IMG/VR virus record: IMGVR_UViG_3300036828_000247
Location: 3,961 to 67,960 of that record
Strand: one strand, 5' to 3'
DNA: 64,000 nt
Source of the DNA: a virus
Below the pieces are notes generated by a model. That model worked only from the letters and a program-made list of their open reading frames with translations. It was not told the DNA's origin and searched no databases. The position numbers were made by a program, and so were the translations under genes. Positions 40,266 to 57,720 of the stretch are shown in pieces (position 1 is the first letter of the stretch; each line of letters starts with the position of its first letter).

Positions 40266-42217
40266 CTGTTACCTGCACCACGGACGGCCGGAAGATCCTG
40301 GTGCGCTTCCCCTACTCCAAGACTGCGGTTGACCAGATTCATAAGGTTCCTGGCGCACGCTGGAATGGCGATGACAAGGTATGGCGCTGCCCGCTGGCCA
40401 TGGATACCTGCCGCGTCCTGCGCCGCGTATTTGGCCAGGAGCTGGAGATCCTGCCGCCGCTGGTTACCTGGGCACGGGCCGAGCTCGTGGCCGAGGCCGC
40501 GCTGGAGGATATCCGGGCCGGGAAGGCTACGGCCCGGCTGGTCCGTGTTGAGGAGCAGGCTCCGCAGCTAGCCCTGGCGATGGATGCCCGACCGTACCAG
40601 AAGGACGGTGCTGCGTTCCTGTCCCTGGGCCAGCACGTTCTGCTGGGCGACCAGCCCGGCCTGGGCAAGACACTTCAGACCCTGGCCGCTCTGGTTGAGA
40701 CCGGTGCCCGCCGCATCCTCGTGGTCTGCCCGCGTACCGCTACCCGGACCGTCTGGGCCCGCGAGACGAATCGCTGGTCCCCCACGATCATGCCGTTCGT
40801 GGCGCAGGGCACCCGCGCCCAGCGCGAGCAGGCGATGCAGTCCTTCGCCGAGATGCCGTATGCCGGCCCCAAGATGCTGATCATCAACACCGAGATGATG
40901 CGGGTGCGGAAGACCTGGGTGTGCAAGCAGCCTCCTTCGGGCGGGAACGTCCCGGGTGGCGGGTACAGCCTGACCCGAGTCAAGGGCAAGAAGAATCTCC
41001 AGTGGGACCCTCCCCTGCCGACGTGGAACAAGGCCCCGGGTCTCAAGGGTGGTTGCCCCCTCGCGCATGACCACGAGGTCGTGCCCGAGCAGGAGTGGCC
41101 GTGGCTGTTCGGGCAGACCTGGGATGCGATCGTGGTGGACGAGAGCCACAACGCGCTGGCCACGACCAAGAATGTCCAGAGCAAGGGAATCACCCAGGTC
41201 CGGTATGGCGCTGTGCTGTTGCGTAAGCGCCTAAGCAAGGACGCGGGTAGCCTCGCCATAGCCCTGTCGGGAACTCCCTTCAGGAGCAACCTGGCGAAGG
41301 CATGGGGCACGCTAAACTGGCTCCGGCCCGACGTGTTCACTAGCTTCTGGAACTACGCCAAGACTCACTTCGGTGTCGAGAGTGACGGCTATGGCCTGAC
41401 GGTCGGCCGGGAGCCGCTGGACCAGGAAGCGTTCGACCGGGCTATGCGGCCGTACTTCCTGGCCCGTACCAAGGCCGAGGTTGCCACCGACCTGCCCCCG
41501 ATCGTCTACGCGGGAACTCCTCCCGAGGGCAATCCCGAGGCCGGCAACTACGTGTGGCTGCCGATGGACGGGAAGCAGGCTGACGCTTACGACGACATGG
41601 TGAAGCTGGCCACGGTCCGACTCGGGGACCGGACGCTGACCGCCAACGGCGTCCTGGCCGAGATCACCCGGAGGCGCCAGTTCGCATGCGCCTACGCGAC
41701 AGCTGGGGCCGGCAACCAGATGCGGATGGCCCTGCCGAGCAACAAGCTGGACTGGATCCTGGAGTTCCTTGAGGAGCGGGCCGGCCAGGAGGGTAAGGTA
41801 GTCATCGCCACCGGGTTCACCCAGCTGGTGAAGCTGTTCAGCGACGAGCTAGCCAGGGCTGGCTATGAGAACCTGACTCTGACCGGCGAGACAAACGACC
41901 GTGACCGTGCAACCCTGGTTGAGCGCTTCGCTGACCCGGACGACACGGCCCGGGTTGCCATCATCAACATGAAGGCCGGGGGCGTGGCTATCACGCTAGA
42001 CCAGGCCGACGATATGATCCTGGTGGACCAGCCGTGGACGTCGGACGAGGAGGAGCAGGTTGTTGACCGGATTCACCGCGTGAGCAGGATTCACAACGTG
42101 ACCGTCTACCGGCTCCTGTCCGAGGGAACTGTGGATGAATGGATGGCTAGCAACGGGGCCGACCAGCGCCGTATCCTGCTGGAGGCCAGGCCCGAGATGC
42201 TCAGGGAGGTGCCATAA
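40262..42217 (+). CDS. SNF2-family DEAD/H helicase with N-terminal HARP-like domain
   Basis: DQPGLGKT, VVDESH, LSGTP, AGGVAITL, QVVDRIHR. Confidence 0.9.
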   Translation: MTVTCTTDGRKILVRFPYSKTAVDQIHKVPGARWNGDDKVWRCPLAMDTCRVLRRVFGQELEILPPLVTWARAELVAEAALEDIRAGKATARLVRVEEQAPQLALAMDARPYQKDGAAFLSLGQHVLLGDQPGLGKTLQTLAALVETGARRILVVCPRTATRTVWARETNRWSPTIMPFVAQGTRAQREQAMQSFAEMPYAGPKMLIINTEMMRVRKTWVCKQPPSGGNVPGGGYSLTRVKGKKNLQWDPPLPTWNKAPGLKGGCPLAHDHEVVPEQEWPWLFGQTWDAIVVDESHNALATTKNVQSKGITQVRYGAVLLRKRLSKDAGSLAIALSGTPFRSNLAKAWGTLNWLRPDVFTSFWNYAKTHFGVESDGYGLTVGREPLDQEAFDRAMRPYFLARTKAEVATDLPPIVYAGTPPEGNPEAGNYVWLPMDGKQADAYDDMVKLATVRLGDRTLTANGVLAEITRRRQFACAYATAGAGNQMRMALPSNKLDWILEFLEERAGQEGKVVIATGFTQLVKLFSDELARAGYENLTLTGETNDRDRATLVERFADPDDTARVAIINMKAGGVAITLDQADDMILVDQPWTSDEEEQVVDRIHRVSRIHNVTVYRLLSEGTVDEWMASNGADQRRILLEARPEMLREVP

Positions 42218-42823: not shown

Positions 42824-42825
42824 CC

Positions 42826-43319: not shown

Positions 43320-43356
43320 GCTAGACCTCACCGACCGGGCGAAACGAGAGGAAGCC

Positions 43357-44157
43357 ATGACCGCCTACGTAGTAACCAGGAACAGACCCAACAACCTCAA
43401 GAAGGTCATCCCGTTCTGGCTGGACCAGGAGATTCCAGTCAGGCTGGTGGTTGAGTCATCCGAGTACCAGGAGCACAGGGATCTAATCCGGGGGATGGGG
43501 TGGCGTGGCTGGGTCACGGCAATCCGGCCGAAGTCCCGTGAGCGTGGCATCGGCTATGCCAGGAACTTCGCCGTGCGTGATGCCGCATCAGAGGGTCTGG
43601 CCTCCTTCATTATGAGCGATGACGATATGCGGCCGCAGGAAGGATCAGACATGCGCCTCCTGCTCGAGGAGGCCGCTGAGAATAACGTCCTGGGCATCGG
43701 GGCCGTGCGCCGGCTCCATGACTGGTTCTCGGGAGGGGCTGTCAGCGCCAACAGCGGCGTGATCCTGTGCCCGTCCGGCTGGGGCATGCAGCTGTTTGCG
43801 CTCAACACGCTGAAGGCCCTGGAAGTGGGCAACTTCGACAAGCGGCTGGACTGCCTCGGGGAAGACCATGAGCTCATGCGGCAGGGCATCTCCCGGAAGA
43901 TTCCATGGCTGGTTCACTGCGACGTCTACTGTGACGCCATCGGGGCCCGTTACGCACCGGGCGGCCTCAACACCTACGCAGGCGGTAGGGTGGCCCGTAC
44001 GGAACGGGAGCTCGCGTGCCACACCCTCGTACACGACATGTGGCCGCAGTACGTTAGCGAGCCAGGCAGGGCCATGCGCGTGTCCTGGCAGCGGATGCTT
44101 AATGACTACATCCCCGGCTGGAAGGCCCGGAGCGCTATCCACGGTGGTAAGTGGTGA
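43357..44157 (+). CDS. GT-A glycosyltransferase resembling phage base-glycosylating (TAGT/GREB1/JGT-like) enzymes
   Basis: VVTRNRP, GIGYARNF, FIMSDDDM, GEDHEL, GGLN. Confidence 0.7.
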   Translation: MTAYVVTRNRPNNLKKVIPFWLDQEIPVRLVVESSEYQEHRDLIRGMGWRGWVTAIRPKSRERGIGYARNFAVRDAASEGLASFIMSDDDMRPQEGSDMRLLLEEAAENNVLGIGAVRRLHDWFSGGAVSANSGVILCPSGWGMQLFALNTLKALEVGNFDKRLDCLGEDHELMRQGISRKIPWLVHCDVYCDAIGARYAPGGLNTYAGGRVARTERELACHTLVHDMWPQYVSEPGRAMRVSWQRMLNDYIPGWKARSAIHGGKW

Positions 44158-44459
44158 AGACTCTCGATGGCCCGGCTACGCGCCGAGTGCTGACCGGATA
44201 CTACCGGCTACCTACAGCTACGGCTCTGCGCATCCTTGAGATTGTCAGCGAGCACGGCGTCAGCGTTGAGCCCTGGGAGAGAGGGGCCGTGACCGTCAGG
44301 GCGGCCGGTAAGAGCCTGTTCACCATTGAGAATGGCGCATCCGGGGCCGTTGATGGACTTCGTCCGGGAAAACCGGCCAAAACGGTAGCGCCAGGCCAGG
44401 GCAGGGGGTATAGTTCTAGCCCTGGACATCATATCAGCACCAAGCAAGGAGTGAGAACA

Positions 44460-44849
44460 ATGGCAAAGGTCGCAGCGCCTGCTGCCGACGAGTACGACGT
44501 CGAGCGTGACCTCACCGGCTACCTGGACAAGGCCCCCACCGCCAAGATGGAGGACTACCACGAGTGGCTGGAAGGGGTCCTGGGTGTCGAGATCGACAAG
44601 GACTCGATGTTCCTGGGCGTCACGCTCTACCCGGACTTCCAGCGGTCGCAGTTCAACCGAGGCCGCACCGCCGCGCGGCGTGAGGCGCGCGCAGCGGGCA
44701 ACGGCGAGGCCGAGGCCGAGACCGAGACCCCGGCCAAGGCCACTCCCGCCAGGCGCGGTCGTCCGCCCGGCAAGGCTGCGGCTGGCAAGGCCACGCCGGC
44801 CAAGCGTGGCCGTGGCAAGGCAGCTGCGGGTACCGCAGCGCCGTACTAG
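44460..44849 (+). CDS. DNA-binding-like protein with basic PAK tail (in-frame upstream extension from 44154)
   Basis: Promoter at 44386-44414 + AAGGAG RBS; YHEWLEGVLG...DFQRS; ATPAKRGRGK. Confidence 0.6.
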   Translation: MAKVAAPAADEYDVERDLTGYLDKAPTAKMEDYHEWLEGVLGVEIDKDSMFLGVTLYPDFQRSQFNRGRTAARREARAAGNGEAEAETETPAKATPARRGRPPGKAAAGKATPAKRGRGKAAAGTAAPY

Positions 44850-44856
44850 AAGGACC

Positions 44857-44895
44857 CCGGAGCACCGGGTTGGCCGACCCAGCCCGGTGCTCTGG
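44857..44895 (+). terminator. Long hairpin before the tRNA (terminator or processing site)
   Basis: CCGGAGCACCGGGTTGG / CCAGCCCGGTGCTCTGG. Confidence 0.5.
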
Positions 44896-44899
44896 TCAA

Positions 44900-44973
44900 G
44901 GCGGAGTAGAGCAGCTCGGTAGCTCGGTTGGCTCATAACCAACAGGTCACTGGTTCAAATCCAGTCTCCGCCC
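44900..44973 (+). tRNA. tRNA-Met (CAT), CCA not encoded
   Basis: Cloverleaf GGCGGAG/CTCCGCC; D arm GAGC/GCTC; anticodon GTTGG-CTCATAA-CCAAC; T arm ACTGG-TTCAAAT-CCAGT. Confidence 0.92.
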
Positions 44974-44991
44974 CGAAGCCGCGTGCGCACA

Positions 44992-45050
44992 GGGGTGCCC
45001 GAGAGCGGCATGGATATGTGGGAATCAAAGCCTACCCGGGCACCCCACCC
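44992..45050 (+). ncRNA. tRNA-like mini-structure
   Basis: 10-bp GGGGTGCCCG/CGGGCACCCC stem + T-arm-like GTGGG-AATCAAAG-CCTAC, followed by ACCC. Confidence 0.35.
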
Positions 45051-45069
45051 TAACTGGGCGAGAGGAACG

Positions 45070-45339
45070 ATGGTGCATCCAATGACGCTTCCGACGATCA
45101 AGCTGGGCGTGCCCGCCAGGAAAATGCCCGAGAAGGCCCCGGCTGCTAAGCATGACAGCATGCACATGATGGAGGGCCTCCGGTACTGCTGGTGTCGTTG
45201 CCGTAACTGCTGGAACCCCTCCTTCCCCGCTCAGGGTCACCTCACCGGCTTCTGTATCTGCCCCGAGTGCCCGTGCCGCAACGAGACAGCCGAGGCCATC
45301 AGTGCGCTCAAGCTTGGCCGTGGGCGGCATGGCCACTGA
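45070..45339 (+). CDS. Cys-rich small protein
   Basis: CWCRCRNC...CICPECPC. Confidence 0.5.
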   Translation: MVHPMTLPTIKLGVPARKMPEKAPAAKHDSMHMMEGLRYCWCRCRNCWNPSFPAQGHLTGFCICPECPCRNETAEAISALKLGRGRHGH

Positions 45340-46336
45340 TACCGGAAACCTCCCGGTCATTACCACGACCGAGCGGAACACCGTCAAGACGTGCCCTCAG
45401 AAATGGTGGTGGCGCTTCCGGGAGGGGCTGGTGCCTAACGGTGAGGTAGCCGATGCCCTGTGGTTTGGGACCGGCGTTCACATTGCGCTAGCCGAGTGGT
45501 ACCTAAATGGCTACAAGCGCGGGCCGCATCCGGCCGATACGTTTGAGGCCTGGGCCGGCGACGAGATGCGTGAGATCCGAGCCCAGCTGACCGAGCGTGA
45601 CGCTGAGTGGTATGACGAGCCGAAGTACATGGACGCCGTGGAGCTCGGCATCGCTATGCTGGAGAACTACGTCAACACGTACGGCAAGGATCCCGGCTGG
45701 CAGATCATCGCTATTGAGCAGCCGTTCAACGTCAAGGTCACTAGCCACGGGAAAGCCATCGCCTGGTTCTTCAGCACGTTCGACGGCGTGATGCGCAGCA
45801 AGGACGACGGCCGCATCTACCTCATTGAGCACAAGACCGCTAGCCAGATTGACCTGGCGTACCTGGAGCTTGACGATCAGGCTGGTGGCTACTGGGCCGT
45901 AGCAACGGCCGTCCTTCGGGGCATGAAGGTGCTCAAGCCCAATGAGGAGATCGCAGGCATCGTCTACAACTTCCTCAGGAAGGCCAAGCCCGACCCCCGG
46001 CCGCGTAACGCCGATGGGGCATACCTCAACCTGAACGGTGAGGTGAGCAAGAAGCAGAGCTCACCCCCGTTCGTGCGCCACACGGTTGAGCGGAACCAGG
46101 GCGAGCTCAGGTCGCAGATGCAGCGGCTGGCAGACGAGGTCACCTGGATGAACGCGATGCGGGACGGGACGATGCCCGTACTCAAGTTCACCGGCCGCCA
46201 CTGCGCCCGGTTCTGTGACTACTTCAACATGTGCAAGCTTCATGAGAACGGTGGCGATGCCTGGCTGGAGCTAGCCGATTCCCTGTACACGAGACGTTCA
46301 CCATACGACAGATACCAGAAGTCTGCGAGCGAATGA
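45329..46336 (+). CDS. Cas4/RecB-like PD-(D/E)XK exonuclease with probable 4Fe-4S cysteines
   Basis: TCPQKW, FGTGVHIAL, FDGV...IEHKT, HCARFCDYFNMC. Confidence 0.85.
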   Translation: MATDTGNLPVITTTERNTVKTCPQKWWWRFREGLVPNGEVADALWFGTGVHIALAEWYLNGYKRGPHPADTFEAWAGDEMREIRAQLTERDAEWYDEPKYMDAVELGIAMLENYVNTYGKDPGWQIIAIEQPFNVKVTSHGKAIAWFFSTFDGVMRSKDDGRIYLIEHKTASQIDLAYLELDDQAGGYWAVATAVLRGMKVLKPNEEIAGIVYNFLRKAKPDPRPRNADGAYLNLNGEVSKKQSSPPFVRHTVERNQGELRSQMQRLADEVTWMNAMRDGTMPVLKFTGRHCARFCDYFNMCKLHENGGDAWLELADSLYTRRSPYDRYQKSASE

Positions 46337-46737
46337 TGAGAATTTACCTGGCTGCATCCTGGGCCCAGAAGAAAACCATGTGCGACGTAGCCGACCACCT
46401 GGCTGCGCTCGGGCACGAGGTTACCAGCCACTGGATCCGCTCCGTCGAGCCCGTGGGGATGGACGGCCCGGCCGTGGAGGCGGACGAGGAGAAAGCCATT
46501 GACGGGGCCATCCGTGACCTGCTGGATATCGACAAGGCCCAGCTCGTGGCCGTGTTCACGGGTGTCCCGAGTAGCACCGGAGGGCTCCACGTCGAGTACG
46601 GCTACGCAATCGGACAGGGCAAGCCCATCGCGATTATCGGCCCGAGGCCAAACGTGTTCTATGCGCTGAGCCGAGCCAGTCACTACACGGATGCGGGCCA
46701 GTTCTTTGACTGGCTCTGGGATTTCAAGGAGGACTAG
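46333..46737 (+). CDS. Nucleoside 2-deoxyribosyltransferase-like nucleotide N-glycosidase
   Basis: IYLAAS, DLLDIDKAQL, STGGLHVEYGYAIGQGKPI. Confidence 0.8.
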   Translation: MMRIYLAASWAQKKTMCDVADHLAALGHEVTSHWIRSVEPVGMDGPAVEADEEKAIDGAIRDLLDIDKAQLVAVFTGVPSSTGGLHVEYGYAIGQGKPIAIIGPRPNVFYALSRASHYTDAGQFFDWLWDFKED

Positions 46738-47568
46738 ATGCCAGCAGCAGCTAAGCGGGGCCAGCGGACCACCCGCGCCAAGACCCACTCCCAGGAGAGG
46801 GAAAACCCAACTGGGATCGAGGTCACCCCGGTCTCCATCGAGATTGAGTCGCTCGGGGCTACCAACCCCAGCATCAACTGGCTGATCTACGGCCCGAGCG
46901 GCGTGGGCAAGACCATCGTAGCGGGCGGAGCGCCCAACGCCTACTTCCTGGATACCGAGCAGGGCACCGTGAGCGCCAAGCGGGCCGGGAGCAAGGCTGG
47001 GCTGATGCGGGCCCCCGACTGGGAGCACGTCGTGGCTGCGGCCACCGTGGCCAAGGAGAAGCTCGGCCCAGAGGATTGGCTGATCGTCGACAGCCACACC
47101 AAGGGCCAGATCCTCTACATGCGGTGGCTCCTCCGGATGCGGAATGCGGAGAACGCATCCCGGGACCTTGACATCCCGGCAATCCAGGACCACCAGAAGT
47201 GGCAGAATGGCTTCACGCGCTGGACCGATGAGATGGTGGCCGCCCAGTTCAACACGATCTTCATCTGCACGGAGATGTACAAGACCGATTCCGAGGGCGA
47301 AGACATCGTGCTGCCGGCAATCACCGGCAAGGACTACGCCATCTGTAACTACATCAGGGCGCAGATGGGTATCGTTTCCTGGTACAACATCTCCGGCCCG
47401 GCCAGCGAGGCCGCCGGCGAAACGATCCGCAGGATGCTGTTCCAGCCCTATCCGCCGTACGTGGCGAAGGACCGCTACAGCGTGTTCGGCAACCACCAGG
47501 ACGTTCACGAGGGTGAGTTCGGGGTGATGGCCGAATTCATCGATATGATCAGGGATTCCATCAGGTAA
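46738..47568 (+). CDS. AAA_24/Sak4-like ATPase (recombinase)
   Basis: IYGPSGVGKT, LDTEQG, LIVDS, AKDR. Confidence 0.8.
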   Translation: MPAAAKRGQRTTRAKTHSQERENPTGIEVTPVSIEIESLGATNPSINWLIYGPSGVGKTIVAGGAPNAYFLDTEQGTVSAKRAGSKAGLMRAPDWEHVVAAATVAKEKLGPEDWLIVDSHTKGQILYMRWLLRMRNAENASRDLDIPAIQDHQKWQNGFTRWTDEMVAAQFNTIFICTEMYKTDSEGEDIVLPAITGKDYAICNYIRAQMGIVSWYNISGPASEAAGETIRRMLFQPYPPYVAKDRYSVFGNHQDVHEGEFGVMAEFIDMIRDSIR

Positions 47569-47617
47569 GGTAGGTCGTACATCCCACAGACCGGGACTAC
47601 CGGGCAAGGAGAACAGC

Positions 47618-48376
47618 ATGCCAAGGCTCAAGGTAACAGAAGGCTTCGACATCGATGAACTGGAGAGCGCAGAGTTCACCGAGGACGGAACGCCCAGGGA
47701 AGACTATGAGGGCGAGATCCCGCCGTCCGATCTCATCCTGGCCGGCTACATCAAGAAGATGTGGTTCACCTACACCGCTGCTAAGGCAGACGGTACCGGC
47801 GAGGACCCCATGCTCAAGATCCTGTTCGTCGCAGAGGGCAACGAGGATGATGACGAGCTCGCGGAGTACGAGGGCTGCCCGTTCTGGGACAACTACCCGC
47901 TGATCACCAGCGCCAAGTTCAAGTGGGCACCGTTCCTGCGCAACTTCGGCCTCAAGCTCACGGACGTCCTGGGGCCCAAGTCCAAGCTGTACGTCGAGGA
48001 CGATGACGACAACAACGGCGCTCCGATCGAGAAGATCGCATCCCTGGTGCCCGGCGATGACGAGTCGTCCTGGTGCCGGATCGTCACGGCCCGGGAGAAG
48101 TACCAGGGCAACTGGCAGGCCCGCGTCGGCCAGTGGCTCCCCTTCGACGCGGCTGACGATCAGTCCGAGAACGGCAGCGAGCCCGATGAGCCCGAGGAGC
48201 CCGCTACCCCGGCCCGGGGCCGTGGCGCTAGGACGGCCGCTAAGCCGACGGCCGCCAGGGCCACACCTACCCGTGGGGGCCGGGCTGCCAAGGCCGCACC
48301 TGCCAAGGCAGCCGCGCCAGCGCGTGGCCGTCGGGGAGCCCGCGCGGCCGGCGACGACACCGAGCCTCCGTTCTAG
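47618..48376 (+). CDS. Single-stranded DNA-binding protein-like
   Basis: Follows the Sak4-like gene; acidic, ends DDTEPPF. Confidence 0.65.
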   Translation: MPRLKVTEGFDIDELESAEFTEDGTPREDYEGEIPPSDLILAGYIKKMWFTYTAAKADGTGEDPMLKILFVAEGNEDDDELAEYEGCPFWDNYPLITSAKFKWAPFLRNFGLKLTDVLGPKSKLYVEDDDDNNGAPIEKIASLVPGDDESSWCRIVTAREKYQGNWQARVGQWLPFDAADDQSENGSEPDEPEEPATPARGRGARTAAKPTAARATPTRGGRAAKAAPAKAAAPARGRRGARAAGDDTEPPF

Positions 48377-48463
48377 CCCACCTCCCCTGAGCGGACCGGC
48401 CCGGCACCCCGTCGCTGGGCCGGTCCCCTGAGGGAAGGAACCGGGCGAGACAAGGAGAGAACA

Positions 48464-49240
48464 GTGCGCGTAGCAATTCTTGGGTGTGGGCCAGCCGGGC
48501 TCGTGGCCGCGTTCGCGGCCGAACGGACCGGGGCCCAGGCTCACATCTTCAGCAAGCCCCGGAAGAGCGAGATGTTCGGAGCCCAGTACCTTCACGAGCC
48601 GATCCCGGGCATTCCGCCCGGCGTGCCCCAGGAGATCAGCTATCAGCTCCGCGGGAGCCAGGATGACTACCGTCTCAAGGTCTATGGCCCAGGCTACTCC
48701 GGCCCGGTCAGCCCGGGCACGCTGGAGGAGGCGCACGCTGCCTGGGACATCCGGCACACCTACGATCAGCTGTGGAACATCTACGGGCCGTCCGTCGTGC
48801 CCGCCGATATCAGCCCGGCCTGGATCACGAGCAAGATCCTGATTGGGTTTGACACCGTCATCAGCACAGTCCCGCTCCCGGTGATATGTGAGAACGACCA
48901 CCACCGTTTCGTGTCCCAGGAGATAGCAGCACTGGGTGACGCTCCCGAGCGGGGTCAGTTCGTCCCGGAGGATCTCCCCGAGGGCACCGTGATCTGTAAC
49001 GGGCTCCGGCACCCGTCGTGGTACCGGGCCAGCAAGATCTTCGGGCACGCCACCCTAGAGTGGAGCGACGCCAACGGGGCCATGGCGCCAGCCAACGCAT
49101 CCCGCGTCCGGAAGCCGCTGAGCACAACCTGTGACTGCTGGCCTACCATCGCCCGGACCGGCCGCTATGGCCAGTGGAAGAAGGGTGCTCTGGTCCACGA
49201 GGCTTACCGCGCGACCATCGACCACATCGCAAGCCTGTGA
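48464..49240 (+). CDS. FAD-dependent oxidoreductase (UDP-galactopyranose mutase/HemY-like)
   Basis: VAILGCGPAGL, DTVISTVPL, GRYGQWK. Confidence 0.75.
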   Translation: MRVAILGCGPAGLVAAFAAERTGAQAHIFSKPRKSEMFGAQYLHEPIPGIPPGVPQEISYQLRGSQDDYRLKVYGPGYSGPVSPGTLEEAHAAWDIRHTYDQLWNIYGPSVVPADISPAWITSKILIGFDTVISTVPLPVICENDHHRFVSQEIAALGDAPERGQFVPEDLPEGTVICNGLRHPSWYRASKIFGHATLEWSDANGAMAPANASRVRKPLSTTCDCWPTIARTGRYGQWKKGALVHEAYRATIDHIASL

Positions 49241-49881
49241 CCGATATGACGATCCGGACTACCATGCCCCGGCCGGTCGTGGCCCTAGACATTGACGGGA
49301 CCCTCGGGGATTACCACGGTCACTTCACCCGGTTTGCCCAGGAGTGGACTGGGCGTGAGATGCCCGACCCAGCCGACATCAACCCGGCTCTGCCGTTCCA
49401 CAGGCACCTCGGGATGAGCAAGGCAACCTACCGGCAGTGCAAGCTGGCCTATCGGCAGGGCGGCATGAAGCGGAGCATGCCGGTGTACCCGGGTGCGGCC
49501 GACATGATTCGTGACTTCCGGCACGCCGGAGCCAAGGTCTGGTTGTGTACCACACGGCCGTATCTCCGGCTTGACAACATCGACCCTGACACCCGGCACT
49601 GGCTCCGCCGGAACCACGTCCAGTTTGACGGACTGCTCTACGGCCCGAACAAGTACCGGGATCTTGTGAAGCTGGTGCCGGCCTTTTCGGTCGTGGCCGT
49701 CCTGGACGACCTAGTTGACCTGGTTTACCAGACGCATAAGCTGGGGCTTAACGGATTTGTCCGGGATCAGCCTTACAACCGTTACCCTGCTGATCTTCCC
49801 CGGGTCAGTGATTTCACGGACGACCCATGGCGCAAGACGATGCTTGCCGTAATAGAGACGGCAGATAGGTGGCTGAAATGA
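49237..49881 (+). CDS. HAD-family phosphatase (5'-nucleotidase-like)
   Basis: VALDIDGTL, LCTTRP, VLDD, QPYN. Confidence 0.8.
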   Translation: MTDMTIRTTMPRPVVALDIDGTLGDYHGHFTRFAQEWTGREMPDPADINPALPFHRHLGMSKATYRQCKLAYRQGGMKRSMPVYPGAADMIRDFRHAGAKVWLCTTRPYLRLDNIDPDTRHWLRRNHVQFDGLLYGPNKYRDLVKLVPAFSVVAVLDDLVDLVYQTHKLGLNGFVRDQPYNRYPADLPRVSDFTDDPWRKTMLAVIETADRWLK

Positions 49882-50597
49882 AGGTCTGGGTAATTGGCGG
49901 TACCTCGGGGATCGGGGAGGCTGTGGCTAACCGCTGCATGTACGCGAATGACGAGGTGATCTCTACCGGGGCCGCTGAGGTGGATGTCCGGGAGCAGGAC
50001 GACATCGAGGGCTTCTGGCGGGAGGTCGGAGGGTTTGAGGGCATCGTCTACTCGGCAGGCATCAACACGCTGAGCTGGATCAGGGACCTAGACCCGGACG
50101 AGGCGATGGACATTATGAACGTCAACGTCATGGGATTCATGCGGGTGCTCCAGGTCGTCACCGATATCGCAGTGCCGATGCCGCTCCCGCGTCGTTCCGG
50201 CTACATGAGCCGGCTCGGGCCGCCGATGCTCCGGTCTGTCGTGGCAGTCAGTAGTGACGCCGCTACCCGGCCGATGCGGACCAGCATGGCCTACTGCGCC
50301 AGTAAGGCTGCACTCGATATGGCTGTGCGGTGCGCCGCCCGCGAGCTTGCGCCGTTCATCCGGGTCAACGCAGTCTCGCCCGGCATGATCGACAACACCG
50401 GGATGACAGAGTACATTGACCGGACCGTCCCGAAGATCAGGGACTGGACCCCGGAGCACGCAGACAAGTACGAGCGGTCCCAGTGCCCGGCCGGTAGGCG
50501 CGGCATGCCAGCCGAGGTAGCTGACCTTGTCTTCAACACCCTCAGGGGGCCGGAATACCTAACCGGCTCCATCATCACGATGAATGGCGGCAGATGA
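49878..50597 (+). CDS. Short-chain dehydrogenase/reductase
   Basis: GGTSGIG, YCASKAAL, VNAVSPG, YLTGSIITMNGG. Confidence 0.9.
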   Translation: MKVWVIGGTSGIGEAVANRCMYANDEVISTGAAEVDVREQDDIEGFWREVGGFEGIVYSAGINTLSWIRDLDPDEAMDIMNVNVMGFMRVLQVVTDIAVPMPLPRRSGYMSRLGPPMLRSVVAVSSDAATRPMRTSMAYCASKAALDMAVRCAARELAPFIRVNAVSPGMIDNTGMTEYIDRTVPKIRDWTPEHADKYERSQCPAGRRGMPAEVADLVFNTLRGPEYLTGSIITMNGGR

Positions 50598-51172
50598 TGG
50601 CTGAAGAACTGTGGTGGGGCAAGCCACCAACACACAAAGGCGAGAAGGAAGTTCTGGCGTACTTCCAGAAGTTGGGTATCGGTAAGCACAGACAACGTGA
50701 CAGAATTGCGCGCGAACTCGATATGCCAAGGGATTCCGTGTCGAGCTATGCTTCTGTGTTGTGTAGGACAGGATGGCTCCTTGGTCATAAGCAGGAAGAA
50801 CACCACCTACCGGGGTGGTATTCCCTCAACAGACCCCCGACCGAGGACAAGTTGAATGTGGTACGCCGTGACAACAGCGCAGAAGGTACCGTGAGCACGG
50901 TTCTCAGCGACAAAACGCTGATGGCCATCCAGGACGAGGCGACCAGGGCACACCTGCTTCACCGGTCCAACTCAATGCTCAACCCGGATATTGAGGGTGG
51001 CGATGACAGGCGTCTGGCTATCCTGGCCGAGGAGTTTGGCGAGGTGGCCCGGGAGCTCAACGATGCCAGGGTTGAGCATCGCCTAGTTGACATCGACAAG
51101 CTAGTCAAGGAACTGGTCCAGACGGCCGCAATGGCAGCCAGCTGGGCCGAGGTCCGGGACGGGAAGTCATGA
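50594..51172 (+). CDS. HTH-like domain fused to a MazG-like NTP pyrophosphohydrolase
   Basis: ILAEEFGEVARE...KELVQTAAMAASW. Confidence 0.7.
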   Translation: MMAEELWWGKPPTHKGEKEVLAYFQKLGIGKHRQRDRIARELDMPRDSVSSYASVLCRTGWLLGHKQEEHHLPGWYSLNRPPTEDKLNVVRRDNSAEGTVSTVLSDKTLMAIQDEATRAHLLHRSNSMLNPDIEGGDDRRLAILAEEFGEVARELNDARVEHRLVDIDKLVKELVQTAAMAASWAEVRDGKS

Positions 51173-52059
51173 GCGGCGAGATGGAGCGGTGGGCTGACGA
51201 GGCGATGTACCTTGCCGAGCCCGATAACAGCGCTGAGGTCTTCGGGCACGTTGAGCCGTGCGTGACGCTGGTGAGCATGACGGCCAACCCGCTCCGGGTG
51301 ATGGCGAGCGCAACCGAGCTCTACCGGGGCCGCGTCGTGCGCCGCCCGGACGAGATCTCGCGGGAGACGGCCGAGAACTGGCTGACCGACATGACCCGGA
51401 CCACGCTCAGCGCGGGGCTGGAGTTCATTGATCTCCACTTCCTGATCGAGGGGGTTACCCGGGCATTCACGCATCAGCTAGTTCGGCAGCGGACGGCCGT
51501 GTTCGTCCAGGAGTCGCAGCGCTTCGCCGTCAAGGCCGACGCGCAGTGGGAGGTGGCGATGCCGCCGACGATCGCAGCTCTGGCCGACGATGACCCACGC
51601 CGCGTCCGGTGGGCCGAGGCCGTGATCGACGTAACTCATGCCTACAACGCTCTCGTTAGCGCGGGCGTCCCGGCCGAGGACGCGCGTAGCCTCCTGCCGA
51701 CCAACATCACAACCCGTATCCACTACAAGACCAACCTCCGGAACCTCGCCGACCATGCAGGGATGCGGCTGTGCTCTCAGGCTCAGGCCGAGTGGAAGAA
51801 CGTCTGGGCCAGGATGATCCACGCCATCCAGAGCTACGGCCCTATCGAGGAGCGCTGGCAGCAGGAAGCAATCGGCCGCCTGTTCAAGCCGGTCTGCTTC
51901 CTCACCGGGAAGTGTGAGTTCATGGCCGCTACCGATCGCTGGTGCGCAATCCGGGAACGGGTGGAAGCACACCACGCGGCCGGGGACCCGGTCGCAACCT
52001 GGGTCGACATCGACCCAATGGAGCCGCTCCGTGAGGGCGCAGCAAGGAGGGCATCATGA
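51169..52059 (+). CDS. thyX: Flavin-dependent thymidylate synthase homolog (RQR variant motif)
   Basis: HQLVRQRTAVFVQESQRF, EDARSLLP, RLCSQAQAEW. Confidence 0.85.
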   Translation: MSGEMERWADEAMYLAEPDNSAEVFGHVEPCVTLVSMTANPLRVMASATELYRGRVVRRPDEISRETAENWLTDMTRTTLSAGLEFIDLHFLIEGVTRAFTHQLVRQRTAVFVQESQRFAVKADAQWEVAMPPTIAALADDDPRRVRWAEAVIDVTHAYNALVSAGVPAEDARSLLPTNITTRIHYKTNLRNLADHAGMRLCSQAQAEWKNVWARMIHAIQSYGPIEERWQQEAIGRLFKPVCFLTGKCEFMAATDRWCAIRERVEAHHAAGDPVATWVDIDPMEPLREGAARRAS

Positions 52060-52484
52060 CATCTAGCGTTGACCGGTGCGCCCGCTGTACCGTCGTGCGG
52101 CGCTCGCACGATCCGTCCGATCACCCGTTCATCGAGTCCGACCGGGAGAAGGACGTTGACGCGGCGCACGAGTTCCTGGAGCGCTGCTGCCTGACCCCGA
52201 CCCCGGACGCGGTGGATCAGCTAGTGGATGCAATCCTCCCCGCTCTCCGGATCATGTGCGAGCGCGGGTATGACCCGGAGGGAGGAAGCTGGCGCGAGTC
52301 CGGCTGGATGGGACAGATGGCCGAGATCCGGAAGCGTGCCTCACGGCTCGTTCACCACAGCTGGCGACACGGCCGGTTCGACTTCGGGGACGCAGTTGAC
52401 ATGATCAACTACTGCGGATTCTACCTCCGCCTGGAGGGCAAAGGCAAGCCCTGGGGCGAGTGGGGCGAGCCCGGAGACGGGTGA
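52056..52484 (+). CDS. Nucleotide-modification-associated helical domain (DUF1599/Nmad1-like)
   Basis: GYDP...W...GWMG...IRKRASRL...DMINYCGF. Confidence 0.55.
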   Translation: MTSSVDRCARCTVVRRSHDPSDHPFIESDREKDVDAAHEFLERCCLTPTPDAVDQLVDAILPALRIMCERGYDPEGGSWRESGWMGQMAEIRKRASRLVHHSWRHGRFDFGDAVDMINYCGFYLRLEGKGKPWGEWGEPGDG

Positions 52485-52633: not shown

Positions 52634-53014
52634 ATGTGCTGCTGGACTCACGAGAACGTCACCGAGGCCACCGCGCCTCAGCACGAGGAGTGGCGCTGCC
52701 GGTGTGGATACGGCTTCGCCCAGTGCCATCGGCAGGCCACCCGGGAGGACCTGCTGTGTGACATCTGCGGCGGCCGGGAGAAGTGTCCTCCTCAGCCCGA
52801 ACCTCTGTACCGGACCGAAGCTAGCCGAGGCATGATGCAGATCATAGACGAGTCATGGGAGAGGCTGCCGCCCCGGACCCCGGAGCAATACGGGTGGACG
52901 CCTTCCGGTGAGATTCCGGACTGGTACCGGAGGCTGGCGGCCGGCGAGATCAAGTTCGATATCAAGGACATCAAGAACATGCCGAAGGACTGGCCCCCGA
53001 AGCCGGAGGCATGA
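52634..53014 (+). CDS. Cys-rich hypothetical protein
   Basis: CRCG...QCHRQATREDLLCDIC; ATGA coupling. Confidence 0.5.
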   Translation: MCCWTHENVTEATAPQHEEWRCRCGYGFAQCHRQATREDLLCDICGGREKCPPQPEPLYRTEASRGMMQIIDESWERLPPRTPEQYGWTPSGEIPDWYRRLAAGEIKFDIKDIKNMPKDWPPKPEA

Positions 53015-53949
53015 TGGACTTCGCAAACCTCCACGGGCACACCACGTTCAGCTTTGGTGACGGCTTCGGGACCCCGGCCCAGCACTTCCAGCGCGCGGCC
53101 GAGCTCGGCTATACGGCTATGGCGGTGACCGAGCACGGCAACACCTCCTCTCACTTCCAGGCAGAGAAGGCTGCGAAGAAGGCAGGCATCAAGGCGGTCT
53201 TCGGACTGGAGGCCTATACCGGGCCGACCAATATTGAGGGGTCCCCGGCCCGGAGCCAGTGGAAGCATCACCTCACAATCCTGGCGGCAGATGATGAAGG
53301 GTACAGGAACCTCAACAGGATCGTCACGCAGAGCTACATCGACTTCCATTACCATCCAACAGTTGGTGGACGATCCCTGGCGGAGCATGCCGAAGGTCTG
53401 GTTGTACTCTCTGGCTGTTCCGGCTCGCAGCTTGCTTGTGCGCTCCTGGGCGGCAAGGGCACACCGGAGCATATTGACGATCCGGATTTCGAGGCCGCCA
53501 GAGCGGTGATTGAGAAGTTCGTTAATATCTTCGGGGACAACTACTATCTGGAGGTTCAGCCGTTCTACGAGCTTCCTCGTTCACGCGCCATGAATGCGGC
53601 ATACACTGTGCTGAGCCAGGACATGGGCGTGCCGCTCGTGGTGACGCATGACGTCCACTACCCGGCGATGGCGGACGCTGAGATGCAGGCCGTGCTTCAC
53701 GCGGTCCACCGGGGAAAGGCGAGCGTGGACGATGCTATGCGTGAATGGAATTACGAGGTACCCTTGACGCTACCCGCGTCCGATGATGAGCTGCTTGCCA
53801 GGCTCCTCAGGACCGGCATCAACGAGTGGTCGGCCCGGTCCGCTATCGAGACTAGCGGCGCCATCGCTGACCGGTGCAACGTGACGCTCCCGAGGGCGGA
53901 CCGGCTGCGCTACCCGGCCACAGAGGAGGACATGGAACCATGGGTATGA
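53011..53949 (+). CDS. dnaE: DNA polymerase III alpha, stand-alone PHP domain
   Basis: LHGHTTFSFGDG, AVTEHG, GLEAY, HLTILA, THDVHY. Confidence 0.9.
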   Translation: MMDFANLHGHTTFSFGDGFGTPAQHFQRAAELGYTAMAVTEHGNTSSHFQAEKAAKKAGIKAVFGLEAYTGPTNIEGSPARSQWKHHLTILAADDEGYRNLNRIVTQSYIDFHYHPTVGGRSLAEHAEGLVVLSGCSGSQLACALLGGKGTPEHIDDPDFEAARAVIEKFVNIFGDNYYLEVQPFYELPRSRAMNAAYTVLSQDMGVPLVVTHDVHYPAMADAEMQAVLHAVHRGKASVDDAMREWNYEVPLTLPASDDELLARLLRTGINEWSARSAIETSGAIADRCNVTLPRADRLRYPATEEDMEPWV

Positions 53950-54221
53950 TCAAGCGGGCCATCGCCATTATCATCGGTCCCGGTATCAACAAGCTGATGG
54001 ACATGACGAATGCCTGCCGCTGCATTAGCTGCTGCGCCAAGGAGAACTGGGTTCCCTGCGAGAACAAGACCCGGGACGGCCAGAAGGTATGCGACTGGTG
54101 CATCGGGTCTAACAACGGTGAGTACCCGCACTGCCACTCCATCGGGAATGCCATGGTGAAGGCAGGCTGGGCTCTCGGCCGGGCCGACATTAAGGCGAAG
54201 GACTCTTCATGGCCGGAATGA
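53946..54221 (+). CDS. Cys-rich ORF inserted between the DnaE halves
   Basis: ATGA overlaps on both sides; CRCISCC, CDWC, HCH. Confidence 0.55.
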   Translation: MIKRAIAIIIGPGINKLMDMTNACRCISCCAKENWVPCENKTRDGQKVCDWCIGSNNGEYPHCHSIGNAMVKAGWALGRADIKAKDSSWPE

Positions 54222-56470: not shown

Positions 56471-56480
56471 GGAGCAAGCC

Positions 56481-57711: not shown

Positions 57712-57720
57712 GGGTTAACC

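What the first reader, a model, noticed from the sequence alone, without database searches (positions are those of the whole stretch)
43357..52484. Putative pathway for a glycosylated/hypermodified pyrimidine
Seen: a TAGT/JGT-like glycosyltransferase (FIMSDDD), an NDT-like nucleotide hydrolase, then a tightly coupled run of FAD oxidoreductase (mutase-like GRYGQW), HAD phosphatase, SDR, MazG-like, ThyX and Nmad1-like genes, followed by the phage's own DnaE. Known: JGT-type enzymes glycosylate hydroxymethyl-pyrimidines; MilB/DNPH1-type NDT-fold enzymes cleave hydroxymethyl-pyrimidine nucleotides; FAD oxidase + SDR pairs can epimerise sugars (as DprE1/DprE2 do). Inference: the phage makes an unusual sugar donor and/or a modified dNTP and decorates its DNA against restriction. 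The chemistry is unknown.
Basis: partly seen in the sequence, partly recalled or inferred. Interest (0 to 1): 0.72.

Follow-up and report, generated by a model that had tools for sequence, protein, structure and literature searches.

The report
Phage replication operon with orphan glycosyltransferase
A soil phage carries, inside its DNA-replication operon, a sugar-transferring enzyme of the type that decorates phage DNA and a widely conserved but unstudied trio of flavin enzyme, phosphatase and reductase, yet it lacks every known enzyme that makes the base such a transferase normally decorates.

Summary
The genes are real, but they are not one dedicated pathway. The interval 43357-52484 is part of a co-directional early operon of a 68-kb, 64% GC, actinophage-like virus: SNF2 helicase, GT, AT-hook protein, Cas4-like nuclease, NDT-fold protein, Sak4/RecA-like ATPase, SSB-like protein, FAD protein, HAD phosphatase, SDR, unknown ORF, ThyX-like, unknown ORF, split DnaE.

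The GT is a TAGT-family GT-A enzyme. Its nearest viral folds are TAGT proteins and a T-even-type beta-glucosyl-HMC alpha-glucosyltransferase.

The FAD protein belongs to a family found almost only in phages. No Pfam model covers it beyond the FAD-binding start. UDP-galactopyranose mutase is its best fold match, but it is not a member of that family.

FAD protein, NT5C-like phosphatase and SDR form a conserved block next to DnaE in 126 isolated actinophages. None of those has this GT. Conversely, the GT occurs almost only in phages that carry the block.

No TET/JBP or ThyA-type enzyme is present here or in four near-complete relatives.

'MazG-like' is unproven. 'Nmad1-like' is plausible only through an indirect link.

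Best reading, confidence about 0.45: an accessory DNA glycosyltransferase layered on a conserved nucleotide-metabolism block, with the acceptor base unknown.

The parts
40262..42217 (+). SNF2-family helicase, the upstream member of the same replication module
   Evidence: Pfam SNF2-rel_dom and Helicase_C. Present in 36 of 40 full-flank FAD-protein loci.
43357..44157 (+). GT-A fold glycosyltransferase of the TAGT family (FIMSDDD; R10, D88-D90, E169-D170 conserved)
   Evidence: Pfam TAGT 23.1 bits; orthologues pass the cut-off. Alignment A1. AF2 model pLDDT 92. PDB fold hits are GT-A enzymes. Best viral fold hits are TAGT proteins and a beta-glucosyl-HMC alpha-glucosyltransferase.
44151..44849 (+). 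Unknown protein overlapping the GT stop by 7 nt. Its C-terminal tail has RGRP-type basic repeats, read here as AT-hook-like.
   Evidence: Sequence. Only PHROGs of unknown function match. Homologues seen in 24 of 36 GT loci.
45302..46336 (+). Cas4-like PD-(D/E)XK exonuclease
   Evidence: Pfam PDDEXK_1 and phrog_1218 at E 7e-88. Present in 40 of 40 full-flank FAD-protein loci.
46333..46737 (+). NDT-fold protein (nucleoside deoxyribosyltransferase / nucleotide N-glycosidase fold) with a conserved GG-H-x-E-x-G motif
   Evidence: Pfam 26.6 bits; orthologue 34.9 bits. MilB at E 3e-4. The Glu is conserved in 15 of 15 aligned sequences, and the gene always lies between Cas4 and Sak4.
46738..47568 (+). 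Sak4 / RecA-like AAA_24 ATPase
   Evidence: Pfam AAA_24 and phrog_124. Present in 40 of 40 loci.
47618..48376 (+). Unknown protein with an Ala/Pro/Arg-rich tail ending in an acidic ...DDTEPPF tip, read as SSB-like
   Evidence: Sequence. No family match. The SSB-tip resemblance is recalled, not tested.
48464..49240 (+). FAD-binding protein of an uncharacterised, almost phage-only family (phrog_8720)
   Evidence: phrog_8720 at E 1e-84. 797 cluster representatives. Only the N-terminal Rossmann motif matches Pfam or PDB sequences. AF2 model pLDDT 96. Folds: UGM Z 14.2, then PPOX, DAAO and class A monooxygenases at about 12.
49246..49881 (+). HAD phosphatase with a DIDGT motif, of the NT5C (5'(3')-deoxyribonucleotidase) type
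   Evidence: Pfam Hydrolase/HAD/NT5C weak for this protein; phrog_415 at E 4e-19. Orthologues pass the NT5C cut-off: 31.9 and 41.0 bits, 39.5 and 25.9 bits.
49869..50597 (+). Classical short-chain dehydrogenase/reductase (GGTSGIG and YxxxK present)
   Evidence: Pfam adh_short and adh_short_C2. NCBIfam SDR/FabG-type hits, none reaching an equivalog cut-off.
50594..51172 (+).
   Evidence: phrog_2831 (unknown function) on the C-terminal half. No Pfam, NCBIfam or PDB match. MazG at E 0.19 in an orthologue. Only 7 homologues found.
51169..52059 (+). ThyX-like flavin-dependent thymidylate synthase with RQR in place of the canonical RHR
   Evidence: Pfam Thy1 121 bits; TIGR02170 90.2 against 87.9. 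Alignment to solved ThyX. The R[QST..]R variant is present in both GT+ and GT- relatives.
52056..52484 (+). Unknown small protein, possibly Nmad1/DUF1599-like
   Evidence: No direct hit. hhalign 93.9% to L079:12341-12751, which hits DUF1599 at E 6.9e-4. The Atlas lead is weak.
53011..56470 (+). DnaE-type polymerase split into a PHP gene (53011-53949) and a core gene (54209-56470)
   Evidence: Pfam. The same split in two frames occurs in close relative L077, whereas more distant relatives have one ORF of about 1060 aa.

Best explanation
The interval is the middle of a phage early operon for replication, recombination and nucleotide metabolism. It holds two separable layers.

Layer 1, the conserved block. 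It consists of the FAD protein, an NT5C-type HAD phosphatase, an SDR and a ThyX-like enzyme, here with an NDT-fold protein and two small unknown ORFs. This block travels with the Cas4/Sak4/DnaE replication module across a large group of actinophage-like viruses, and it works without any glycosyltransferase. Most likely it acts on pyrimidine (deoxy)nucleotides or their sugar moiety:
- the phosphatase removes a 5'-phosphate;
- the NDT-fold enzyme cleaves or exchanges a base;
- ThyX methylates dUMP;
- the flavoprotein and the SDR form an oxidise-then-reduce pair on a hydroxyl-bearing carbon.
The substrate is unknown.

Layer 2, the accessory transferase. A TAGT-family GT-A enzyme is present only in a sub-lineage. 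Most likely it transfers a sugar from an NDP-sugar to phage DNA after replication. The acceptor cannot be made by the known routes, because TET/JBP and ThyA-type enzymes are absent. It is either a product of layer 1 or something not yet recognised.

Shown: gene identities at fold or family level, translational coupling, and the co-occurrence pattern.
Inferred: all substrates, DNA as the GT's target, and any link between the two layers.
For: Operon structure:
- Co-directional genes with overlaps or gaps of 5 nt or less from the FAD protein to orf52056.

The block is conserved and independent of the GT:
- The FAD protein was found in 126 phage records (Gordonia 46, Microbacterium 36, Mycobacterium 32, Streptomyces 9, Arthrobacter 2, Nocardia 1), always annotated within helicase-Cas4-RecA-like-oxidoreductase-phosphatase-FabG-like-DnaE-ThyX neighbourhoods.
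- The GT found 0 records in the same collection.
- In 40 IMG/VR FAD-protein loci with full flanks: Cas4 40, Sak4 40, PHP/DnaE 40, SNF2 36, HAD 36, ThyX 34, SDR 27, GT 1.

The GT is nested within block-carrying phages:
- Of 36 GT loci, 27 show the FAD protein downstream, 7 are cut off before that position, and 2 lack the module.
- The association holds at 31-32% GT identity and 48-50% GC (L035 and L036).

The GT is of the DNA-glycosyltransferase kind:
- TAGT Pfam hits in orthologues.
- The best viral folds are TAGT proteins and a beta-glucosyl-HMC alpha-glucosyltransferase, TM 0.61-0.71.
- R, DDD and ED positions are conserved. They match the R...DDD...EDY/F motif that bioRxiv 10.1101/2023.12.21.572611 reports for phage GT-A DNA glycosyltransferases and JGT (passages read).
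- The GT sits among early replication genes in all relatives.

Nucleotide enzymes:
- HAD orthologues pass the NT5C cut-off.
- The NDT-fold Glu motif is conserved and aligns to MilB.
- The same slot in relatives holds dCMP deaminase, dCTP deaminase, UDG, a SAM methyltransferase, a PP-loop ATPase and a DUF1599-like ORF.
Against: - No acceptor-making enzyme was found. There is no Tet_JBP or Thymidylat_synt match in the window's own record (77% complete by CheckV) or in 5 GT-bearing relatives, 4 of them 94-100% complete. No DNA methyltransferase or dNMP kinase appears in the window.
- The ThyX-like motif variant is shared by GT+ and GT- phages, so it does not mark a GT-specific chemistry.
- A TAGT-family member in animals, GREB1, glycosylates a protein (PMC7968844, search listing and abstract only).
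- The bioRxiv survey notes that about 65% of phage GT contigs have no neighbouring base-modifying enzyme and are 'less likely' to be DNA enzymes (section 9 read).
- The nesting of the GT within block-carrying phages could reflect shared descent only.
- No function of the FAD protein has been tested anywhere that I could find.
Confidence: 0.45

Rival explanations
1. Single dedicated pathway. The FAD protein acts as a mutase or oxidase, and with the SDR and the phosphatase it builds an unusual NDP-sugar that the GT then puts on a hydroxymethyl-pyrimidine in DNA.
For: - UGM is the top fold match of the FAD protein: Z 14.2 with 250 of 258 residues aligned. Three of the top four rows are pyranose mutases.
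- The GT has a weak NCBIfam hit to galactofuranosyltransferase GlfT1, E 1.2e-4 and far below the cut-off.
- A phage UGM feeding a DNA galactosyltransferase is proposed for Rhizobium phage RL38J1 in PMC13326640 (sections 25 and 28 read).
- The FAD protein, phosphatase and SDR are translationally coupled.
Against: - The trio occurs in 126 isolates with no homologue of this GT, and in 39 of 40 full-flank loci without it.
- 0 of 41 family members hit Pfam GLF.
- hhalign against E. coli Glf aligns only the N-terminal Rossmann motif, probability 1.6%.
- The protein has 258 aa, against 365-473 aa for the matched mutases.
- No nucleotidyltransferase or sugar kinase was found.
- No hydroxymethylase or TET was found.
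- The phosphatase is of the NT5C deoxyribonucleotidase type.
Confidence: 0.12
2. The GT does not act on DNA. It glycosylates a protein (virion or replication protein) or a small molecule, and the neighbouring nucleotide enzymes are unrelated to it.
For: - The best solved folds are polypeptide GalNAc-transferases and other GT-A enzymes.
- GREB1, of the TAGT family, is reported as a protein O-GlcNAc transferase (PMC7968844, abstract in the search listing).
- Virion glycosylation by mycobacteriophage GTs is cited in papers listed; I saw listings only.
- No acceptor-making enzyme was found.
Against: - The GT always sits among early replication genes, next to SNF2 or Cas4. The only partial exception is L027/L028, where it lies beside an AAA_25 helicase-type gene with a small-terminase gene two ORFs downstream.
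- The best viral fold matches are TAGT proteins and a T-even-type DNA glucosyltransferase.
- The active-site motif is shared with proven phage DNA GT-A enzymes.
Confidence: 0.2
3. There is no DNA modification. The block is ordinary nucleotide supply and host-nucleotide scavenging for replication: ThyX makes dTMP, the phosphatase and the NDT-fold enzyme recycle host nucleotides, and the flavoprotein and SDR serve redox or cofactor needs. The GT has some other accessory role.
For: - ThyX passes the equivalog cut-off and keeps the RxRX7S...R and ARxxLP elements that align to solved ThyX.
- Isolated phages with the block were sequenced routinely, and I found no report of modified DNA in them (searches; the Xenia2 table read lists only generic names).
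- Relatives carry repair genes in the same slot: an endonuclease V-type Pyr_excise directly upstream of the FAD protein in 4 of 10 loci examined, and UDG.
Against: - It gives no reason why a flavoprotein family found almost only in phages stays next to DnaE. The family has 797 clusters, but only 3 hits reach beyond the N-terminal third (2 full-length, 1 cut off by a contig end) among one genome each of 185,579 species, all on MAG contigs; the two full-length ones carry the phage module.
- It gives no reason for the GT being confined to block-carrying phages.
- A SAM methyltransferase, a PP-loop ATPase and a DUF1599-like ORF in the same slot suggest modification chemistry.
Confidence: 0.25

Closest known systems
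TET-associated glycosyltransferases (Pfam PF20691) and phage GT-A DNA glycosyltransferases / JGT
   Same: GT-A fold, DxD (SDDD) motif, conserved R...DDD...ED positions and a size of about 270 aa. Viral TAGT models are the best fold matches. Orthologues pass the Pfam cut-off.
   Different: There is no TET/JBP, no C5-methyltransferase and no ThyA-type hydroxymethylase in the genome or in near-complete relatives. The residue after ED is His here and varies among homologues, instead of Tyr/Phe. The window's own protein scores below the Pfam cut-off.
T-even-type beta-glucosyl-HMC alpha-glucosyltransferase (phrog_842; BFVD model of Klebsiella phage PKO111)
   Same: Weak PHROG match at E 2e-4. Fold match at rank 6, TM 0.64/0.61.
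   Different: That enzyme extends glucosyl-hydroxymethylcytosine (recalled). No hydroxymethylcytosine pathway exists here.
MilB / DNPH1-type nucleotide N-glycosidases of the NDT fold
   Same: Local alignment over the catalytic PGVPxSxGxHVExG region at E 3e-4. The Glu is conserved in 15 of 15 aligned sequences.
   Different: Only 44 residues align. The Pfam score is below the cut-off for the window's protein. Neither substrate nor phosphate-binding residues were tested. The gene was seen in 14 related loci only.
UDP-galactopyranose mutase
   Same: Best overall fold match, and a C-terminal GRxGx[WY] FAD-motif position.
   Different: About 110-210 residues shorter. No sequence relation beyond the Rossmann motif. 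Z is only 1.3-2 above unrelated oxidases and monooxygenases.
DprE1/DprE2 (with a preceding phosphatase) epimerisation of decaprenyl-phosphoribose
   Same: The logic of phosphatase, then flavin oxidase, then SDR reductase on a pentose 2'-OH is the closest functional analogy. This is recalled knowledge.
   Different: DprE1 is recalled to be a VAO-type flavoenzyme and the phosphatase a PAP2 enzyme. Here the flavoprotein is Rossmann-type and the phosphatase is HAD/NT5C-type. No lipid carrier or membrane segment is evident.
The 'oxidoreductase - phosphatase - (methyltransferase) - FabG-like' genes of actinophage clusters such as D, DV and EF (e.g. PBI1 gp58-62)
   Same: Orthologous block, with FAD-protein identity of 44-47% and the same position between the RecA-like gene and DnaE.
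   Different: Those phages have no homologue of this GT, and many carry a SAM methyltransferase in the block. Their functions are unstudied as far as my searches show.

Membership tests
TAGT (PF20691) | Score at or above Pfam's gathering cut-off (27.5 bits) | tested here: inconclusive
   The window's protein scores 23.1 bits. Orthologues score 38.1 and 31.6, 43.9 and 39.6. 53 of 85 homologue clusters carry PF20691.
TAGT (PF20691) | Genomic association with a TET/JBP dioxygenase | tested here: not met
   Tet_JBP found in 0 of 1 (own record) and 0 of 5 GT-bearing relatives at E<=1. None in the Pfam scans of neighbourhoods.
Phage GT-A DNA glycosyltransferases / JGT | R...DDD...EDY/F active-site motif | tested here: inconclusive
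   R10 is invariant, D88-D90 and E169-D170 are conserved in 34 sequences, but the Y/F position is His or variable. The motif is taken from bioRxiv 10.1101/2023.12.21.572611. No direct alignment to those enzymes was made.
Phage GT-A DNA glycosyltransferases / JGT | Sugar transfer to a base in DNA | not testable with these tools
   Needs a biochemical assay or nucleoside mass spectrometry.
UDP-galactopyranose mutase (Pfam GLF) | Sequence membership in GLF, and the full three-domain architecture | tested here: not met
   0 of 41 members hit GLF. hhalign to E. coli Glf gives probability 1.6%, N-terminus only. 258 aa against 365-473 aa.
UDP-galactopyranose mutase (Pfam GLF) | Fold similarity | tested here: met
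   Z 14.2, rmsd 3.6 and 250 residues aligned to 4dsg; Z 12.6 and 12.5 to two other mutases. Unrelated flavoenzymes score 11-12.9.
Nucleoside 2-deoxyribosyltransferase fold (PF05014) / MilB-like hydrolases | Pfam cut-off and a conserved catalytic Glu | tested here: inconclusive
   26.6 bits against 28.8 for the window's protein, 34.9 for the L031 orthologue. The Glu in GGxHxExG is conserved in 15 of 15 sequences and aligns to the HVE of MilB. Hydrolase versus transferase cannot be told.
NT5C 5'(3')-deoxyribonucleotidase (PF06941) | Pfam cut-off (24.8 bits) and the DxDxT motif | tested here: inconclusive
   The window's protein scores 15.4 bits and has DIDGT. Orthologues score 31.9, 41.0, 39.5 and 25.9 bits; two others score 23.5 and 21.3.
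ThyX (PF02511 / TIGR02170) | Family cut-offs | tested here: met
   Thy1 121.3 bits against 24.8; TIGR02170 90.2 against 87.9.
ThyX (PF02511 / TIGR02170) | Canonical RHRX7S motif (the motif is recalled) | tested here: not met
   RQRX7S in the window. Q, S, T, N or E stands at the His position in all 66 related loci listed, GT+ and GT- alike.
MazG (PF03819) | Significant profile match | tested here: inconclusive
   No hit for the window's protein. E 0.19 and 12.4 bits in a 95%-identical orthologue. An EEFGE string is present.
Nmad1 / DUF1599 (PF07659) | Significant profile match | tested here: inconclusive
   0 of 38 members hit at E<=0.1. There is an indirect link: hhalign 93.9%, E 1.5e-7, to an ORF with DUF1599 at 20.3 bits against a cut-off of 25.
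DprE1/DprE2-type epimerase pair | VAO-type (FAD_binding_4) flavoenzyme plus an SDR partner | tested here: not met
   The flavoprotein has a Rossmann-type N-terminus and a UGM/PPOX/DAAO-like fold, with no FAD_binding_4 hit. The SDR partner is present. The analogy is functional only.

The most novel reading that the evidence does not exclude
The conserved block next to DnaE (FAD protein, NT5C-like phosphatase, SDR, ThyX-like enzyme) is present in more than a hundred isolated actinophages, including cluster D mycobacteriophages, and in hundreds of soil viral contigs. It may encode an unrecognised route that alters a deoxynucleotide. One possibility is dephosphorylation, flavin oxidation and SDR reduction of the sugar or base, giving an epimerised or hydroxylated nucleoside. 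The product would either enter phage DNA or poison host replication. Sub-lineages would then cap it differently: a TAGT-type sugar transfer in this phage, a SAM-dependent methylation in cluster D-like phages.
Probability: 0.2. Interest if true: 0.85.

Novelty: new variant of a known kind. Interest (0 to 1): 0.55.

Why it matters
Known phage DNA glycosylation starts from a hydroxyl placed by a ThyA-type enzyme or a TET/JBP dioxygenase. A TAGT-type transferase conserved in a lineage that has neither would point to a new source of acceptor, or to a new target for this enzyme family.

Separately, the flavoprotein/phosphatase/SDR block is one of the most conserved unexplained features of a large, well-sampled group of actinophages. 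Many isolates with genetic tools are available, so its function is directly testable.

If the block changes DNA or nucleotide pools, that bears on restriction and CRISPR evasion, and on the use of such phages against mycobacteria.

Tried and rejected
- **Near-identical DNA in isolated phages:** none found.
- **GT, orf50594 and orf52056 by tblastn in 50,697 phage records:** no match.
- **Sequence searches of solved structures:** nothing for the GT, orf50594 or orf52056. For the FAD protein and its profile, only the Rossmann motif matched.
- **Protein Atlas:** orf50594 gave only unnamed viral clusters at 0.80-0.83. orf52056 gave a DUF1599-bearing cluster at rank 11 with score 0.82, which is a lead only.
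- **FAD protein as a class A monooxygenase (base hydroxylase):** considered, because VioD, MHPCO, KMO and HpxO appear among the fold hits. I ranked it lower because the FAD motif lies at the very C-terminus, as I recall for UGM, PPOX and DAAO. That argument rests on recall and was not tested.
- **A GT-specific ThyX variant that could make a hydroxymethyl base:** rejected. The RQR-type motif is shared by GT- phages, including PBI1.
- **Cellular homologues of the FAD protein that might reveal function through their neighbours:** only MAG contigs were found. The two full-length hits carry the same phage module and the third is a 116-residue piece at a contig end. The other 34 hits cover only the N-terminal part (107 query residues or fewer).
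- **Promoter and terminator scan of 42000-57000:** counts at chance level.
- **Sequencing runs:** four soil-metagenome runs held as contigs, one possibly the source, and no RNA holder listed.
- **Earlier notes of this scan:** none for this genome.
- **Literature:** searches found no paper on the function of this flavoprotein family or of the block. The mycobacteriophage structural-annotation paper PMC12363180 has no passage with the terms searched.
- **Failed call:** the first attempt to scan genomes with the 41-sequence alignment failed for lack of a conserved stretch. It was repeated with 13 closer sequences.

Full report
**What the window is**

The window is 64 kb at about 64% GC. It is positions 3961-67960 of a 67,960-base IMG/VR virus record that CheckV rates 77% complete. 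It carries capsid, portal and terminase genes, a PrimPol-AAA_25 gene and lysis genes. The relatives among isolated phages infect Gordonia, Microbacterium, Mycobacterium, Streptomyces, Arthrobacter and Nocardia. I therefore read it as an actinophage-like siphovirus from soil. The only sequencing runs that hold it are soil metagenomes.

**Gene map of the finding**

All genes are on the + strand.

| Coordinates | Gene |
|---|---|
| 40262-42217 | SNF2 helicase |
| 42348-43319 | four small unknown ORFs |
| 43357-44157 | GT |
| 44151-44849 | unknown ORF with a basic RGRP-repeat tail, overlapping the GT by 7 nt |
| 45302-46336 | Cas4-like PD-(D/E)XK nuclease |
| 46333-46737 | NDT-fold protein |
| 46738-47568 | Sak4/AAA_24 ATPase |
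| 47618-48376 | unknown ORF ending ...DDTEPPF |
| 48464-49240 | FAD protein |
| 49246-49881 | HAD phosphatase |
| 49869-50597 | SDR |
| 50594-51172 | unknown ORF |
| 51169-52059 | ThyX-like |
| 52056-52484 | unknown ORF |
| 52634-53014 | unknown ORF |
| 53011-53949 | PHP domain of DnaE |
| 54209-56470 | DnaE core |

From the FAD protein to orf52056 the spacings are +5, -13, -4, -4 and -4 nt.

**The glycosyltransferase**

- The window's protein hits Pfam TAGT below the cut-off and GT2 weakly. It also hits PHROGs named glycosyltransferase and beta-glucosyl-HMC-alpha-glucosyltransferase weakly.
- It has 85 homologue clusters in metagenomes, 53 of them with a precomputed PF20691 hit. It has 36 IMG/VR loci. 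It has no homologue in 50,697 phage records.
- Orthologues pass the TAGT cut-off.
- A 34-sequence alignment shows invariant R10 and D89, and conserved D88, D90, E169 and D170.
- The AF2 model (pLDDT 92) is a GT-A fold. Solved neighbours are polypeptide GalNAc-transferases and other GT-A enzymes.
- In the viral model library the best named neighbours are TAGT-domain proteins and a beta-glucosyl-HMC alpha-glucosyltransferase, with TM 0.61-0.71.
- A preprint that tested TET-associated phage GTs reports an R...DDD...EDY/F motif shared by phage GT-A DNA glycosyltransferases and trypanosome JGT (passages). The first three elements are present here.
- The same preprint cautions that about 65% of GT-bearing viral contigs have no base-modifying neighbour (section 9).
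- An animal TAGT-family protein, GREB1, is reported to glycosylate a protein (abstract in listing).

**The FAD protein**

- It matches phrog_8720 (function unknown) at E 1e-84. Pfam, NCBIfam and PDB sequences match only over the first ~35 residues.
- An exhaustive search found 797 cluster representatives, nearly all of about 260 aa.
- Among one genome for each of 185,579 prokaryote species, only three loci match beyond the N-terminal third, all on MAG contigs. Two are full-length and carry the phage module. The third is a 116-residue piece at a contig end. The family is in practice phage-only.
- The AF2 model is confident (pLDDT 96).
- By VIA-align the best match is UDP-galactopyranose mutase (Z 14.2, 250 residues aligned). 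Next come an uncharacterised Pyrococcus protein (12.9), two more mutases (12.6 and 12.5), protoporphyrinogen oxidase (12.5), and many class A monooxygenases and amino-acid oxidases at 11-12.5.
- Foldseek ranks D-amino-acid oxidase, VioD and MHPCO first, with the mutase at ranks 12 and 22.
- hhalign against E. coli Glf aligns only the Rossmann motif, at probability 1.6%.
- 0 of 41 members hit Pfam GLF.

It is a compact two-domain flavoprotein whose fold is nearest to the mutase/oxidase side of this superfamily. It is not a member of any described family.

**The other enzymes**

- **HAD phosphatase.** It has DIDGT, and its orthologues pass the NT5C (pyrimidine 5'(3')-deoxyribonucleotidase) cut-off in four loci.
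- **SDR.** It is a classical type with the glycine-rich and YxxxK motifs.
- **NDT-fold protein.** It aligns to the catalytic region of MilB. It keeps the Glu in 15 of 15 aligned sequences and always lies between Cas4 and Sak4.
- **ThyX.** It passes both family cut-offs. It has RQR where solved ThyX enzymes have RHR. The same kind of substitution is found in all 66 related loci listed, whether or not they carry the GT, so it says nothing about the GT.
- **orf50594.** It could not be assigned. The MazG idea rests on an EEFGE string and an E 0.19 hit in an orthologue.
- **orf52056.** It is linked to DUF1599/Nmad1 only through a relative's ORF.

**Comparative genomics, the decisive part**

- In isolated phages the FAD protein lies in a constant neighbourhood: helicase, Cas4, RecA-like, hypothetical, oxidoreductase, phosphatase, sometimes a methyltransferase, FabG-like, DnaE, ThyX-like. 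A genome announcement lists the same series, with the phage clusters that share each gene family (table read).
- In 40 IMG/VR loci with full 10-kb flanks around the FAD protein: Cas4 40, Sak4 40, PHP/DnaE 40, SNF2 36, HAD 36, ThyX 34, SDR 27, GT 1. These are tblastn counts and therefore lower bounds.
- In the reverse direction, of 36 GT loci, 27 show the FAD protein downstream. Seven end before that position. Two (L027 and L028) lack the module and have the GT beside an AAA_25 gene, with a small-terminase gene two ORFs downstream.
- The association holds in the most distant GT homologues, at 31-32% identity and 48-50% GC.
- The block is therefore independent of the GT, while the GT is nested within block-carrying phages. 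That pattern fits an accessory enzyme acting on something the block or its module provides. Shared descent alone could also produce it.
- In most relatives the GT lies just upstream of SNF2 rather than downstream as here.
- The slot around the block is a hot spot for nucleotide and repair genes in relatives: dCMP deaminase, and dCTP deaminase, UDG, an endonuclease V-type glycosylase, a SAM methyltransferase, an Asn-synthase-like PP-loop ATPase and a DUF1599-like ORF.

**What is missing**

- No Tet_JBP and no ThyA-type thymidylate synthase or hydroxymethylase was found in the window's own record, or in five GT-bearing relatives, four of which are 94-100% complete.
- No DNA methyltransferase, dNMP kinase, sugar nucleotidyltransferase or sugar kinase was found in Pfam or PHROG scans of the window's ORFs.
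- For comparison, the arabinosyl-5-hydroxycytosine systems described in 2026 pair a ThyA homologue with GT-B transferases and an isomerase, kinase-uridylyltransferase and HAD phosphatase route to UDP-arabinose. Rhizobium phage RL38J1 has a full-length UGM (sections 25, 27 and 28 of PMC13326640). None of that architecture is present here apart from a HAD phosphatase of a different subtype.

**Verdict**

I commit, at about 0.45, to a two-layer reading: a conserved nucleotide-metabolism block with unknown redox chemistry, plus an accessory DNA glycosylation enzyme whose acceptor is unknown. The rivals are:

| Rival | Confidence |
|---|---|
| Dedicated sugar-donor pathway | 0.12 |
| Non-DNA target for the GT | 0.20 |
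| No modification at all | 0.25 |

The boldest reading still open, at about 0.2, is that the block is an unrecognised nucleotide-modifying route shared by many isolated actinophages.

**Limits**

- All functional statements are homology-based or fold-based.
- The window's record is incomplete.
- tblastn co-occurrence counts are lower bounds.
- The 80 FAD-protein loci are the tool's selection from 231.

Noticed in passing
window 53011-53949 and 54209-56470; L077 7441-8355 and 8636-10513: DnaE is split into a PHP-domain gene and a polymerase-core gene, in different frames with a 259-nt spacer. The same split occurs in a close relative on an independent contig. More distant relatives have a single ORF of about 1060 aa. 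No residues seem to be missing at the junction.
   Followed up: partly
window 51169-52059 and 66 related loci: The whole phage group has a ThyX-like enzyme with Q, S, T, N or E in place of the His of the RHR motif seen in solved ThyX enzymes. Whether these enzymes still make dTMP is untested.
   Followed up: partly
window 47618-48376: An unknown protein conserved between Sak4 and the FAD protein. It has an Ala/Pro/Arg-rich tail ending in an acidic ...DDTEPPF tip, which recalls the C-terminal tip of bacterial SSB (recalled).
   Followed up: no
window 44151-44849: An unknown protein translationally coupled to the GT. It has two RGRP-type AT-hook-like repeats in its tail. In relatives its homologue lies after SNF2, not next to the GT.
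   Followed up: partly
L097 8968-9528, L090 9225-9836, L127 9238-9822, L041 7268-7978: In 4 of 10 relatives examined, a T4 endonuclease V-type pyrimidine-dimer glycosylase gene sits directly upstream of the FAD-protein gene.
   Followed up: no
L120 11416-11946 (= phage PBI1), L097 11273-12025, L078 12535-13143: A SAM-dependent Methyltransf_11 gene lies between the phosphatase and the SDR in GT-less relatives. L079 10804-11688 instead has an Asn-synthase-like PP-loop ATPase next to the FAD protein.
   Followed up: no
L040 and L041 (genome contigs): The only full-length cellular hits of the FAD protein are MAG contigs binned as Saccharibacteria and Scandinavium. Both carry the phage Cas4-Sak4-FAD protein-HAD-DnaE module, so they are probably phage contigs binned with bacterial genomes.
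   Followed up: partly
window 60492-63563 (- strand): A 1023-aa protein with a weak Gly-rich domain hit. Its C-terminal part matches a PHROG named phosphodiesterase. It lies next to a tape-measure-like fragment and is probably a tail protein.
   Followed up: no
window 57001-58173 and 58383-59207: Three cell-wall enzymes lie close together: a LysM plus transglycosylase-like protein, an NlpC/P60 peptidase and an amidase-type endolysin on the opposite strand.
   Followed up: no
window 34363-34797; L010 9402-9995 and equivalents: A DUF6011-containing protein lies directly upstream of the GT in most GT-bearing relatives, but about 8.5 kb upstream of the GT in this window. This shows that the GT has moved within the early region.
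   Followed up: no
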